A stretch of 12,387 nt of DNA, taken from assembly GCA_012514925.1 (NCBI GenBank), contig JAAYZI010000029.1, positions 1 to 12,387 on the forward strand, in the 5' to 3' direction. The notes under the pieces were generated by a model. The model did no database searches, was not told the DNA's origin, and saw only the letters and a program-made list of their open reading frames with translations. Numbering within the stretch: position 1 is the first letter of the stretch; every line of letters starts with the position of its first letter. The stretch comes from Deltaproteobacteria bacterium (GTDB taxonomy: Bacteria > Bdellovibrionota_C > UBA2361 > JAAYZI01). The position numbers and the translations under genes were made by a program. Below, piece after piece: positions 10,228-10,450 of this stretch.

Positions 10228-10360
10228 ATAAAATACTTCTGTCTGCCGCTTCGAAATTAAGTTACCAAGCGGTTGGGAACTTCCTTCCCAAAACGATTTC
10301 TTTATCGGGGAAAAAAGAACAGGGTTTACTTTTTTTTCGGAAATTTTTCGGGAAAAAAGT

Positions 10361-10383
10361 AAAAAAGTAGGGGGGCACCTTTT
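10361..10383. repeat. 22-bp direct repeat AAAAAAGTAGGGGGGCACCTTT, copy 1 (contains a G6 tract at 10370-10375)
   Basis: Identical copy at 10424-10445. The two copies bracket the tandem array. Confidence 0.8.
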
Positions 10384-10424
10384 GGAGAACCTTTTGGAGA
10401 CACCTTTTGGAGACCTTTTGGAGA
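10376..10424. repeat. Four tandem copies of the 11-bp unit CCTTTTGGAGA (starts 10378, 10390, 10403, 10414; periods 12/13/11), 165-210 bp upstream of the collagen-like gene
   Basis: Read directly. On the - strand the unit is TCTCCAAAAGG. Confidence 0.85.
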
Positions 10425-10445
10425 AAAAAGTAGGGGGGCACCTTT
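10424..10445. repeat. 22-bp direct repeat AAAAAAGTAGGGGGGCACCTTT, copy 2 (G6 tract at 10433-10438)
   Basis: Identical to 10361-10382. Confidence 0.8.
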
Positions 10446-10450
10446 CCCAC

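What the first reader, a model, noticed from the sequence alone, without database searches (positions are those of the whole stretch)
10300..10450. Repeat- and homopolymer-laden promoter region of the collagen-like gene: 4x CCTTTTGGAGA tandem array nested inside a 22-bp direct repeat, plus G6, A6 and T8 tracts
The structure is DR(AAAAAAGTAGGGGGGCACCTTT), then four tandem 11-bp units, then the DR again. Each DR contains a G6 run. Nearby are T8 (10330-10337) and several A6 runs, and the reiterated CGGG(G)AAAAAAG. This architecture is typical of contingency loci, where slipped-strand mispairing changes repeat number or tract length and switches surface-protein expression. Alternatively it could be an iteron-type binding array for a dedicated regulator. 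Either way it is not ordinary intergenic DNA.
Basis: partly seen in the sequence, partly recalled or inferred. Interest (0 to 1): 0.55.

Follow-up and report, generated by a model that had tools for sequence, protein, structure and literature searches.

The report
Repeat-rich upstream region of flagellar-type promoter
The repeats are real, but they lie just upstream of a conserved flagellar (sigma-28/FliA-type) promoter for a collagen-like gene and look like a recent, lineage-specific DNA duplication, with no sign of a phase-variation switch.

Summary
Observation confirmed. Four exact CCTTTTGGAGA cores (10378-10424) lie between two identical 22-nt repeats (10361-10382, 10424-10445). Both repeats carry a G6 run, and T8 and A6 runs are nearby. 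This is far beyond chance.

Read on the minus strand, 10302-10328 is TAAA-N15-CCCGATAA, a near-consensus sigma-28 (FliA) promoter. The same motif precedes all five orthologues examined. The T8 and "CGGG(G)AAAAAAG" features are its UP-like A/T tract, spacer and -10 element.

The array and repeats lie at about -67 to -151. They are absent from every orthologue's promoter. No other copy was found in the genome, metagenome or viral collections. They reduce to nested duplications: a 25-mer copied twice with one 1-nt deletion, inside a 63-nt period.

The homopolymers (G6, A6, T8) are below published phase-variation cut-offs. The four imperfect units would also miss the five-copy cut-off, which is defined only for short units. 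Four assemblies are base-for-base identical, though all are one clone.

Best reading: a young, slippage-born duplication in the far-upstream part of a flagellar-regulon promoter, with at most a modest effect on it. A binding array for a regulator, a copy-number rheostat, and antisense pairing with the neighbouring flagellin's repeated coding motif are not excluded. Interest is low to moderate.

The parts
10302..10328 (-). Sigma-28 (FliA)-type promoter: -35 TAAA (10328-10325), 15-nt spacer containing T6, -10 CCCGATAA (10309-10302). The inferred transcription start is near 10294.
   Evidence: It is the only match in the window to TAAA-N16-CCGATAA. The motif KAAA-N15-SCCGAWWW occurs once upstream of each of orthologues L004, L005 and L006. 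L036 has the variant GAAA-N15-TTCGATTT. The 28-nt format matches experimentally mapped E. coli FliA promoters (PMC4203485).
10329..10350 (-). UP-element-like A/T tract directly upstream of the -35 element. On the minus strand it reads CGAAAAATTTCCGAAAAAAAAG.
   Evidence: Sequence. It matches 12 of the 15 specified positions of the UP consensus nnAAAWWTWTTTTnnAAAAnnn (consensus recalled from Estrem 1998). AT-rich upstream elements boost the SigD flagellar promoters hag, fliD and motA (PMC4495994). My own wedge model gives a curvature peak at about 10349.
10325..10363 (.). Imperfect 39-nt palindrome (Pal-A), TTTACTTTTTTTTCGGAAA-T-TTTTCGGGAAAAAAGTAAA, overlapping the -35 element and the UP-like tract.
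   Evidence: the repeat finder pair I1: 19-nt arms, 84% complementary.
10353..10368 (+). Two tandem copies of AAAAAAGT. The second copy starts DR-1.
   Evidence: Tandem Repeats Finder, period 8, 100% matches.
10361..10382 (+). DR-1, AAAAAAGTAGGGGGGCACCTTT (G6 at 10370-10375).
   Evidence: the repeat finder family D1, 100% identity.
10377..10425 (+). Tandem array of four exact CCTTTTGGAGA cores with linkers A, CA and none. Equivalent to a 25-mer (10376-10400) plus a 24-nt copy lacking one A (10401-10424).
   Evidence: The cores fall in different reading frames (spacing 11, 13, 12), so the array is not a coding repeat.
10424..10445 (+). DR-2, identical to DR-1 and 63 nt downstream of it on the plus strand (G6 at 10433-10438).
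   Evidence: DR-2 plus the adjacent unit (minus strand 10445-10413) matches the promoter segment 10332-10300 at 20 of 33 positions. That ties for best non-self match among 24,710 window positions.
10451..10480 (.). Perfect 14+14-nt palindrome (Pal-B), AATTTTACTTTCTC-TG-GAGAAAGTAAAATT, 90 nt after the flagellin stop codon.
   Evidence: the repeat finder pair I2, 100% complementary. The hairpin folds at -12.3 kcal/mol, z = -2.4. No U-run follows it on either strand.
9264..9288 (.). Second copy of the same palindrome (Pal-C), TTTTACTTTCTCCGGAGAAAGTAAA, between the aroC stop and the collagen-like gene stop. It is preceded by TAGGGGGGGC, which resembles the G-tract core of the direct repeats.
   Evidence: blastn-short, 24 of 25 matches, E = 9e-7. 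Sequence, alignment.
10214..10294 (-). Inferred 5' UTR of the collagen-like gene: two hairpins (about 10291-10273 and 10272-10246) and the ribosome-binding site AAGGGAG.
   Evidence: Fold of 10214-10296 on the minus strand: -20.2 kcal/mol, z = -1.55.
9482..10213 (-). Collagen-like gene (243 aa) with a signal-peptide-like N-terminus, Gly-X-Y repeats and a C-terminal globular domain.
   Evidence: Pfam Collagen, E = 2e-15. Translation. NCBI locus tag GX589_00825.
10570..12387 (-). Flagellin gene with an FG-GAP repeat insert. Its N-terminus runs off the contig.
   Evidence: Pfam Flagellin_N, Flagellin_C and seven FG-GAP_3 stretches. The MAG holds at least three paralogues.

Best explanation
The 10300-10450 stretch is the upstream control region of a sigma-28 (FliA)-type promoter that drives the collagen-like gene on the minus strand.

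Shown: TAAA-N15-CCCGATAA lies at 10328-10302, about 80 nt upstream of the ATG. The same promoter motif sits in front of the orthologous gene in four other lineages.

The 'CGGGGAAAAAAG' motif is the complement of the promoter spacer and -10 element.

Inferred: the four-unit array and the 22-nt repeats lie further out, at about -67 to -151. They are a young product of replication slippage or unequal exchange. An 11-13-nt unit doubled to a 25-mer. The 25-mer doubled again and lost one A. All of this sits inside a 63-nt duplication. The duplicated material may itself be a decayed copy of the promoter module.

The array needs no dedicated function to explain its form. At most it tunes the promoter through spacing, curvature at the A6 tracts, or insulation from read-through out of the flagellin gene.
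For: - **Sigma-28 motif:** one exact match in the window. The generalised motif is expected 0.04 times by chance. It occurs once, on the gene's strand and 50-100 nt upstream of the ATG, in L004, L005 and L006, with a CGAT variant in L036. Only one hit appears in the other 25 loci. The format is identical to mapped E. coli FliA promoters.
- **Flagellar context:** a flagellin gene lies directly upstream.
- **UP-like tract:** sequence. There is precedent in the SigD promoters hag, fliD and motA.
- **Lineage-specific array:** no tandem array or 22-nt repeat lies upstream of any orthologue.
- **No other copy anywhere searched:** scans of genome and metagenome contigs for two adjacent units gave only unrelated two- to four-copy hits, none with the GGGGGGCACC flank. 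Viral scans for the 22-nt repeat core and for the palindrome gave chance hits or none.
- **Recent origin:** the cores and the 22-nt repeats are 100% identical, and the two 25-mers match at 24 of 25 positions.
- **Promoter-module resemblance:** 20 of 33 matches, joint best in the window.
- **Curvature:** peaks fall at the UP tract and the DR-2 junction, not in the array core.
- **No RNA family or protein domain:** Rfam gave only a spurious weak hit, and the ORFs across the region have no Pfam match.
Against: - Four perfectly conserved 11-nt cores with variable linkers would also be expected if the core were a selected binding site.
- The spacing of 11-13 bp is close to one helical turn, as in many direct-repeat operator arrays.
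- The absence of variation and the absence of other copies are both weak negatives. The four assemblies are one clone, and the rest of the source genome could not be searched.
- The promoter-module resemblance is only 61% in low-complexity DNA, and an unrelated site ties it.
- No transcription start or expression data exist, so the sigma-28 and UP assignments rest on consensus and conservation.
- The curvature model uses wedge parameters recalled from memory.
Confidence: 0.55

Rival explanations
1. The four CCTTTTGGAGA cores are binding sites for a regulator that recognises direct repeats, such as an OmpR/PhoB/ArcA/TorR-type response regulator or an iteron-type protein. The regulator would activate or repress the sigma-28 promoter from about -85 to -130.
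For: There are four exact cores while the linkers vary. The spacing of 11, 13 and 12 bp is near one helical turn. The position upstream of a promoter is suitable.
Against: The array is not conserved upstream of any of the four other orthologues, although the promoter itself is. No DNA-binding protein gene lies in the 12.4-kb contig. Established operator arrays are usually degenerate copies at fixed phase, not exact copies at variable phase. The exact 22-nt repeat and the 24/25-mer structure point to recent duplication. The only other copy of the 11-mer in the window is inside a coding region, at E = 0.8.
Confidence: 0.17
2. This is a contingency or rheostat locus. Slipped-strand mispairing would change the unit number or the length of the G6, T8 or T6 tracts. 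That would shift the spacing between upstream elements and the promoter and so switch or tune expression of the collagen-like surface protein.
For: Perfect repeat identity is what ongoing slippage maintains. Homopolymers are enriched. T6 lies inside the promoter spacer and A8 abuts the -35 element, places where length changes are known to alter promoter strength. The gene product is a secreted, surface-type protein.
Against: The homopolymer tracts are below published cut-offs: G6 against at least 7, T8 against at least 10 (PMC6321876). The four imperfect units would also fall short of the five-copy cut-off, which is defined only for tetra- and pentanucleotide units. Unequal linkers hinder misalignment in register. 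The array lies upstream of the UP-like tract, not between promoter elements. Four assemblies from different accessions have identical unit number and tract lengths, though this is one clone and these are consensus sequences only.
Confidence: 0.1
3. The array acts as RNA. Transcribed on the minus strand, as the flagellin 3' UTR or as a processed small RNA, UCUCCAAAAGGUGCC would pair with the GGCACCUUUGGAGA motif. That motif encodes G-T-F-G-D and recurs six times in the FG-GAP repeats of the flagellin mRNA. Pairing would feed back on flagellin synthesis, much as E. coli FliX does.
For: The motif GGCACCTTTGGAGA occurs six times on the coding strand of the flagellin gene, three of them exact, and the array is its reverse complement plus one extra base. 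The predicted duplex is -32.7 kcal/mol, matched or beaten by 8 of 500 shuffles. The whole array against the mRNA beat all 300 shuffles. There is no convincing terminator between the flagellin stop and the array. Precedent: FliX, derived from the fliC 3' UTR, pairs inside the fliC coding sequence and lowers flagellin levels (PMC10578931).
Against: blastn-short E-values for the shared words are 0.2 to 13, which is chance level, and the same 11-mer also occurs in an unrelated gene. The shuffle p-value of about 0.016 is uncorrected for the many segments that could have been tested. The region has no significant RNA structure (z = -1.75 and -0.86) and no Rfam match. No comparable element follows the related flagellin in L032. 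Transcription of the array is unproven.
Confidence: 0.05
4. The 22-nt repeats and the palindrome are 3'-end modules of the flagellin transcript, acting as weak terminators or stabilising hairpins of the form G-rich / C6 / TAC / U6. They were duplicated together with paralogous flagellin genes, and the array is a by-product of that duplication.
For: A similar A-rich/G6-7/CTTT module followed by the same palindrome lies after aroC. A third G6 module lies at 10505-10535. Three independent contigs all end at 10457-10514, next to Pal-B. The MAG has at least three flagellin paralogues with near-identical C-termini.
Against: None of the candidate hairpins folds better than shuffled sequence (z = -0.9 to 0.0). 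The terminator scan found none here. No U-run follows Pal-B or Pal-C. DR-1 lacks any G-rich 5' partner.
Confidence: 0.08

Closest known systems
FliA / sigma-28 (SigD) late flagellar promoters with upstream AT-rich UP elements (E. coli fliC, tar, motA; B. subtilis hag, fliD, motA)
   Same: It has the TAAA-N15-(G/C)CCGATAA architecture (compared with PMC4203485). An A/T-rich tract lies directly upstream of the -35 element (PMC4495994). A flagellin gene is the neighbour.
   Different: The gene driven is a collagen-like secreted protein, not a known flagellar or chemotaxis component. A tandem array and 22-nt repeats lie further upstream. Dependence on FliA has not been tested.
Promoter-located simple-sequence-repeat phase variation and rheostats (from my own knowledge: N. 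meningitidis nadA TAAA repeats, H. influenzae hmw 7-bp repeats, H. pylori sabA T-tract, Bordetella fim poly-C)
   Same: Repeats and homopolymers lie upstream of, next to and inside a promoter of a surface-type protein gene.
   Different: Tracts are shorter than those shown to switch: G6, T8, and four imperfect units (cut-offs in PMC6321876). No length polymorphism is seen in four assemblies. The organism is an environmental or digester MAG, not a host-adapted pathogen.
Direct-repeat operator arrays of OmpR/PhoB-family response regulators and plasmid iterons (from my own knowledge)
   Same: There are three to five direct repeats at roughly one helical turn, upstream of a promoter.
   Different: The copies are exact with variable phase (11, 12 and 13 bp). 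No cognate regulator or replication gene is nearby. The array is not conserved in orthologous promoters.
E. coli FliX, a sigma-28-dependent small RNA processed from the fliC 3' UTR that pairs inside the fliC coding sequence (PMC10578931)
   Same: The sequence lies downstream of a flagellin gene and is complementary to a motif inside that gene's coding region.
   Different: There is no evidence that the array is transcribed or processed. The complementarity is statistically borderline. There is no sequence relation to FliX.

Membership tests
Sigma-28 (FliA/SigD) promoter | -35 TAAA and -10 GCCGATAA separated by 15 nt | tested here: met
   TAAACCCTGTTCTTTTTTCCCCGATAA lies at 10328-10302 on the minus strand and matches 11 of the 12 specified bases. 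It is the only such site in the window. The format matches the E. coli FliA promoter table.
Sigma-28 (FliA/SigD) promoter | Correct position and orientation relative to a gene, conserved in orthologues | tested here: met
   The motif lies 50-100 nt upstream of the ATG on the gene's strand in the window, L004, L005 and L006, with a TTCGATTT variant in L036.
Sigma-28 (FliA/SigD) promoter | Transcription depends on FliA, with the start about 7-8 nt after the -10 element | not testable with these tools
   No transcriptome or genetic data are available. A flagellin gene is adjacent.
UP element | A/T-rich sequence at about -38 to -59 matching nnAAAWWTWTTTTnnAAAAnnn | tested here: met
   The minus strand at 10350-10329 reads CGAAAAATTTCCGAAAAAAAAG and matches 12 of 15 specified positions. 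This is my own comparison, with the consensus recalled from Estrem 1998. The over-60% criterion is the one used in PMC4495994.
SSR contingency (phase-variable) locus | Tract length at or above lengths shown to be hypermutable | tested here: not met
   The region has G6, A6 and T8. The cut-offs are at least 7 G/C and at least 10 A/T (PMC6321876). The four imperfect 11-13-nt units would also miss the five-copy cut-off, but that cut-off is defined only for tetra- and pentanucleotide units, and none is defined for longer units.
SSR contingency (phase-variable) locus | Repeat number or tract length differs between isolates or within populations | tested here: inconclusive
   The window and three other assemblies are identical across the whole region. 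All are 100% identical over 1.2-1.6 kb, so they are one clone, these are consensus sequences only, and the samples may not be independent.
SSR contingency (phase-variable) locus | The tract is placed where a length change alters expression (in the ORF, in the -35/-10 spacer, or against the -35 element) | tested here: inconclusive
   T6 lies in the spacer and A8 abuts the -35 element. The array and the G6 tracts lie at -67 to -151, outside the core promoter.
Iteron or direct-repeat operator array | At least three direct repeats at constant helical phase | tested here: inconclusive
   There are four exact cores, but the spacing is 12, 13 and 11 bp.
Iteron or direct-repeat operator array | A cognate DNA-binding or replication protein is encoded nearby | tested here: not met
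   The contig encodes a Band-7 protein, the shikimate pathway genes, the collagen-like protein and the flagellin only.
Iteron or direct-repeat operator array | The sites are conserved in orthologous promoters or recur at other promoters of the regulon | tested here: not met
   The array is absent upstream of the orthologues. No related copy was found in the genome, metagenome or viral scans. The rest of the source MAG could not be searched.
3'UTR-derived base-pairing small RNA (FliX-like) | A stable RNA species from the flagellin 3' region that pairs with a target | not testable with these tools
   Only complementarity could be computed: -32.7 kcal/mol, p about 0.016 uncorrected. BLAST E-values are 0.2 to 13.

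The most novel reading that the evidence does not exclude
The array and 22-nt repeats are transcribed with, or processed from, the flagellin 3' UTR. They would form a multi-seed antisense RNA. Its four UCUCCAAAAGG(UGCC) units would pair with the six GGCACCUUUGGAGA (G-T-F-G-D) motifs repeated inside the FG-GAP insert of this flagellin, and probably of its paralogues. This would be a repeat-on-repeat autoregulatory circuit, analogous in logic to E. coli FliX but built from tandem seeds matched to a protein-repeat motif.
Probability: 0.05. Interest if true: 0.65.

Novelty: new member of a known kind. Interest (0 to 1): 0.25.

Why it matters
As it stands, the finding mainly shows that most of the striking tracts are ordinary promoter anatomy: a sigma-28 -10 element and spacer plus an UP-like A/T tract. 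The tandem array is a young, lineage-specific duplication beside them, not a demonstrated switch.

Two by-products have some value. First, a family of secreted collagen-like proteins carries a conserved FliA-type promoter in five divergent lineages, which suggests it is co-regulated with flagella. Second, the array gives a natural test case for how far-upstream duplications affect a sigma-28 promoter.

If the array proved to vary in copy number, or to pair with the flagellin's repeated coding motif, it would be a new regulatory device in an uncultured lineage. Present evidence does not favour either.

Tried and rejected
- **Known RNA family:** an Rfam E-value scan of the whole window gave only a spurious lncRNA hit (17.8 bits against a gathering score of 40) over the low-complexity array.
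- **Structured RNA:** folds of the intergenic region on both strands gave z = -1.75 and -0.86. Only the Pal-B and Pal-C hairpins stand out.
- **Intrinsic terminators built from the G6/C6 modules:** none folds better than shuffled sequence, and the consensus scan found none.
- **Hidden small gene:** ORFs of 80, 62 and 63 codons cross the region but have no Pfam match. The repeat units fall in different frames. The gene callers behind L001 called nothing there.
- **Dispersed repeat or mobile-element family:** scans of genome contigs, metagenome contigs and viral contigs found only unrelated short coincidences.
- **Pseudogene fragment of an inverted FG-GAP flagellin:** blastn-short shows no similarity beyond 9-12-nt words.
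- **Sigma-54 promoter with enhancer sites:** by eye, the best GG-N10 candidate, TGGTAACTTAATTTCG, lacks the -12 GC and is not conserved in the orthologues. Rejected.
- **Invertible promoter segment between short inverted repeats (pairs I3 and I8):** the segment is only 25-90 nt and no recombinase gene is present. Rejected.
- **Intrinsic curvature of the array core:** my own wedge model puts the peaks at the A6 and UP tracts (about 10349 and 10425). The core at 10380-10410 is average.
- **Other contigs of the same MAG, via flagellin paralogues P0128 and P0132:** not on record.
- **Chorismate synthase look-up to extend the context:** not on record.
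Full report
**1. What is there**

The window is a complete 12,387-bp contig of an NCBI MAG labelled "Deltaproteobacteria bacterium" (locus tags GX589_00825 and GX589_00830). Positions 406-9227 on the plus strand encode a Band-7 protein and a full shikimate/chorismate operon.

Two genes lie on the minus strand. One is a collagen-like gene at 9482-10213 (243 aa, Pfam Collagen). Upstream of it is a flagellin with an FG-GAP repeat insert at 10570-12387, whose N-terminus runs off the contig. 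The finding lies in the 356-bp gap between these two genes.

**2.

The plus strand reads AAAAAAGTAGGGGGGCACCTTT (10361-10382). Four exact CCTTTTGGAGA cores follow (10378-10424). Then the same 22-mer appears again (10424-10445).

G6 runs start at 10370 and 10433. The window's only T8 is at 10330. Four of its five A6 runs are at 10311, 10353, 10361 and 10424.

Dinucleotide-preserving shuffles never give an exact direct repeat longer than 16 nt, against 22 observed. Seven homopolymers of 6 or more in 151 nt is reached in only 10 of 1000 shuffles.

One refinement matters. The linkers between cores are A, CA and nothing. The array is therefore a 25-mer (10376-10400) followed by a 24-nt copy lacking one A (10401-10424), all inside a 63-nt period defined by the 22-mers. 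This amounts to a few nested duplications and one indel, so the structure is young.

**3. The promoter**

On the minus strand, 10328-10302 is TAAA-CCCTGTTCTTTTTTC-CCCGATAA. This is the only match in the window to the sigma-28 pattern. It has the same 28-nt layout as experimentally mapped E. coli FliA promoters, for example tar, TAAAGTTTCCCCCCTCCTTGCCGATAAC (PMC4203485).

I fetched the contigs carrying the closest homologues of the collagen-like protein, at 61%, 46%, 46% and 40% identity. Each has the motif once, on the gene's strand, 50-100 nt upstream of the ATG:
- L004: GAAA-N15-CCCGAATA
- L005: GAAA-N15-GCCGATTA
- L006: GAAA-N15-CCCGATTT
- L036: GAAA-N15-TTCGATTT

The generalised pattern is expected 0.04 times per window. 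It hits only one of the 25 unrelated loci held. The pattern was derived after seeing the sequences. It nevertheless coincides with the independent consensus.

Directly upstream of the -35 element the minus strand reads CGAAAAATTTCCGAAAAAAAAG. This matches 12 of the 15 specified positions of the UP-element consensus, which I recalled from Estrem et al. 1998. AT-rich upstream elements are documented enhancers of the SigD-dependent hag, fliD and motA promoters (PMC4495994).

- T8 is the proximal UP subsite.
- The A6 at 10311 is the T6 in the promoter spacer.
- "CGGGGAAAAAAG" is the complement of the spacer plus the -10 element.

**4. The array and the 22-nt repeats**

With the transcription start inferred near 10294, these elements lie at about -67 to -151. 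Several lines of evidence bear on them.

- **Not conserved.** No orthologue has a tandem array or long direct repeat upstream, although all keep the promoter.
- **Not part of a detectable family.** Scanning 185,579 species genomes and the JGI metagenomes for two adjacent units returned only unrelated two- to four-copy coincidences. Many of these were coding 12-bp repeats, and none had the GGGGGGCACC flank. Viral-contig scans for the repeat core and for the palindrome gave chance hits or none. The source MAG itself is not in those collections. Its other contigs could not be retrieved. Recurrence within the genome therefore remains untested.
- **No length variation seen.** Three other assemblies (ERZ795066, ERZ27268616, SRR5007707) carry the gene. 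They are identical to the window across the array, the G6 tracts and the T8. They are also 100% identical over their full 1.2-1.6 kb. This is one clone, so it is a weak test.
- **Below phase-variation cut-offs.** The cut-offs used to nominate phase-variable tracts are at least 7 G/C and at least 10 A/T (PMC6321876). G6, A6 and T8 fall short. Those cut-offs also ask for at least 5 copies of tetra- or pentanucleotide units and define nothing for 11-13-nt units. Four imperfect units would miss that figure too.
- **Possible promoter-derived origin.** DR-2 plus its adjacent unit matches the promoter segment 10332-10300 at 20 of 33 positions. This ties for best non-self match among 24,710 positions, alongside one unrelated site. 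It hints that the upstream repeats are decayed tandem copies of the promoter module. The evidence is suggestive only.
- **Curvature.** A wedge-model profile, using parameters recalled from Bolshoy 1991, puts two of the ten strongest peaks in the window at about 10349 (the UP tract) and about 10425 (the DR-2 junction). The array core is average.
- **No RNA or protein signal.** There is no Rfam family, no significant RNA structure, no terminator and no protein domain in the overlapping ORFs.

**5. Other structure nearby**

A perfect 14+14-nt palindrome lies at 10451-10480 (Pal-B), 90 nt after the flagellin stop. A near-identical copy (24 of 25) lies at 9264-9288 (Pal-C), between the aroC stop and the collagen-like gene stop. 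The two palindromes therefore bracket the gene and its promoter.

Both are preceded on the plus strand by an A-rich / TAG6-7C / CTTT module that resembles the 22-nt repeat. They fold as modest hairpins (-12.3 and -8.6 kcal/mol, z about -2.4), but no U-run follows either. I read them as 3'-end or REP-like elements of unknown role.

All three short contigs end at 10457-10514, next to Pal-B. This probably reflects near-identical 3' ends of paralogous flagellin genes. The MAG has at least three such genes. That explanation is an inference.

**6. The most unusual lead**

The FG-GAP repeats of the flagellin encode GDGTFGD using GGCACCTTTGGAGA. This motif occurs six times on the coding strand, three of them exactly. 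The array on the opposite strand reads GGCACCTTTTGGAGA. A minus-strand RNA of the array would therefore be antisense to the flagellin mRNA, with one bulged base.

The predicted duplex is -32.7 kcal/mol, matched or beaten by 8 of 500 shuffles. However, BLAST E-values for the shared words are 0.2 to 13, and the same 11-mer also occurs in the Band-7 gene.

E. coli FliX is a small RNA from the fliC 3' UTR that pairs inside the fliC coding sequence (PMC10578931). It shows that such logic exists. I rate the present complementarity as probably chance, with about a 5% probability of being real.

**7. Verdict**

This is a regulatory region, but the contingency-locus reading lacks support and the binding-array reading is undecided.

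My best explanation, at confidence about 0.55, is a FliA-type promoter with an UP-like tract and, further upstream, a recent lineage-specific nested duplication with at most a modulatory effect. The promoter assignment taken alone I put at about 0.85.

The rivals are:
- a direct-repeat regulator site (0.17)
- a slippage rheostat (0.10)
- a duplicated flagellin 3'-end module (0.08)
- antisense RNA (0.05)

The novelty class is a new member of a known kind. Interest is 0.25.

Noticed in passing
window 10302-10328; L004 7298-7324; L005 405-431; L006 521-547; L036 about 2898-2925: A family of small secreted collagen-like proteins (217-253 aa) carries a conserved sigma-28/FliA-type promoter in five divergent lineages. 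This suggests co-regulation with late flagellar genes. Only in the window is the gene next to a flagellin gene.
   Followed up: partly
window 10570-12387 (minus strand): The flagellin has a large FG-GAP/VCBS repeat insert (seven repeats, with a 183-bp DNA tandem repeat at 11333-11755). The MAG has at least three paralogues (P0121, P0128, P0132), all cut by contig ends. Hundreds of similar FG-GAP flagellins exist in metagenomes. A full-text search found no paper that appears to be about FG-GAP flagellins.
   Followed up: partly
window 9264-9288 and 10451-10480: Near-identical palindromes (TTTACTTTCTC-YG-GAGAAAGTAAA) bracket the collagen-like gene and its promoter. Each is preceded by an A-rich/TAG6-7C/CTTT module. 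Their function is unknown: they are not canonical terminators, and no copy was found in viral contigs or in the related loci.
   Followed up: partly
window 10376-10445 against 11036-11886: The intergenic array is the reverse complement, plus one extra base, of the GGCACCTTTGGAGA motif that encodes G-T-F-G-D six times in the flagellin gene. The statistics are borderline.
   Followed up: partly
L001, L002 and L003 ends, equal to window 10514, 10487 and 10457; L002 other end at 9273: Three independent low-coverage contigs all break within 60 nt of Pal-B, and L002 also starts inside Pal-C. This suggests a repeat shared with paralogous flagellin loci, or a sequencing or assembly problem at the palindromes.
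   Followed up: no
window 10210-10452 (minus strand): An 80-codon ORF (TTG start) stays open across the 22-nt repeats, the array and the promoter, and ends in an ATGA overlap with the collagen-like start codon. It has no Pfam hit, the gene callers did not call it, and the repeat units fall in different frames. It is probably an artefact of low-complexity sequence.
   Followed up: partly
window 1622-3694 (plus strand): A single 690-aa protein fuses chorismate mutase, prephenate dehydratase, an ACT domain and DAHP synthase. It heads a compact operon containing aroB, aroA, aroK, aroE, aroD and aroC.
   Followed up: no
L032 5085-5130 and 8058-8110; 5670-5705 and 7972-8005: In a related metagenomic contig, the FG-GAP flagellin gene (60% identity) is flanked upstream and downstream by the same roughly 35-50-nt intergenic modules. 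This suggests tandem flagellin genes with duplicated spacers. A sigma-28-like TAAA-N16-ACCGATAC precedes the gene.
   Followed up: no
window 10345-10352 (minus strand): A second -10-like element, CCCGAAAA (compare E. coli tsr, GCCGAAAA), lies 43 nt upstream of the main -10 element. It lacks a TAAA at the -35 position and may be a relic of a duplicated promoter.
   Followed up: no
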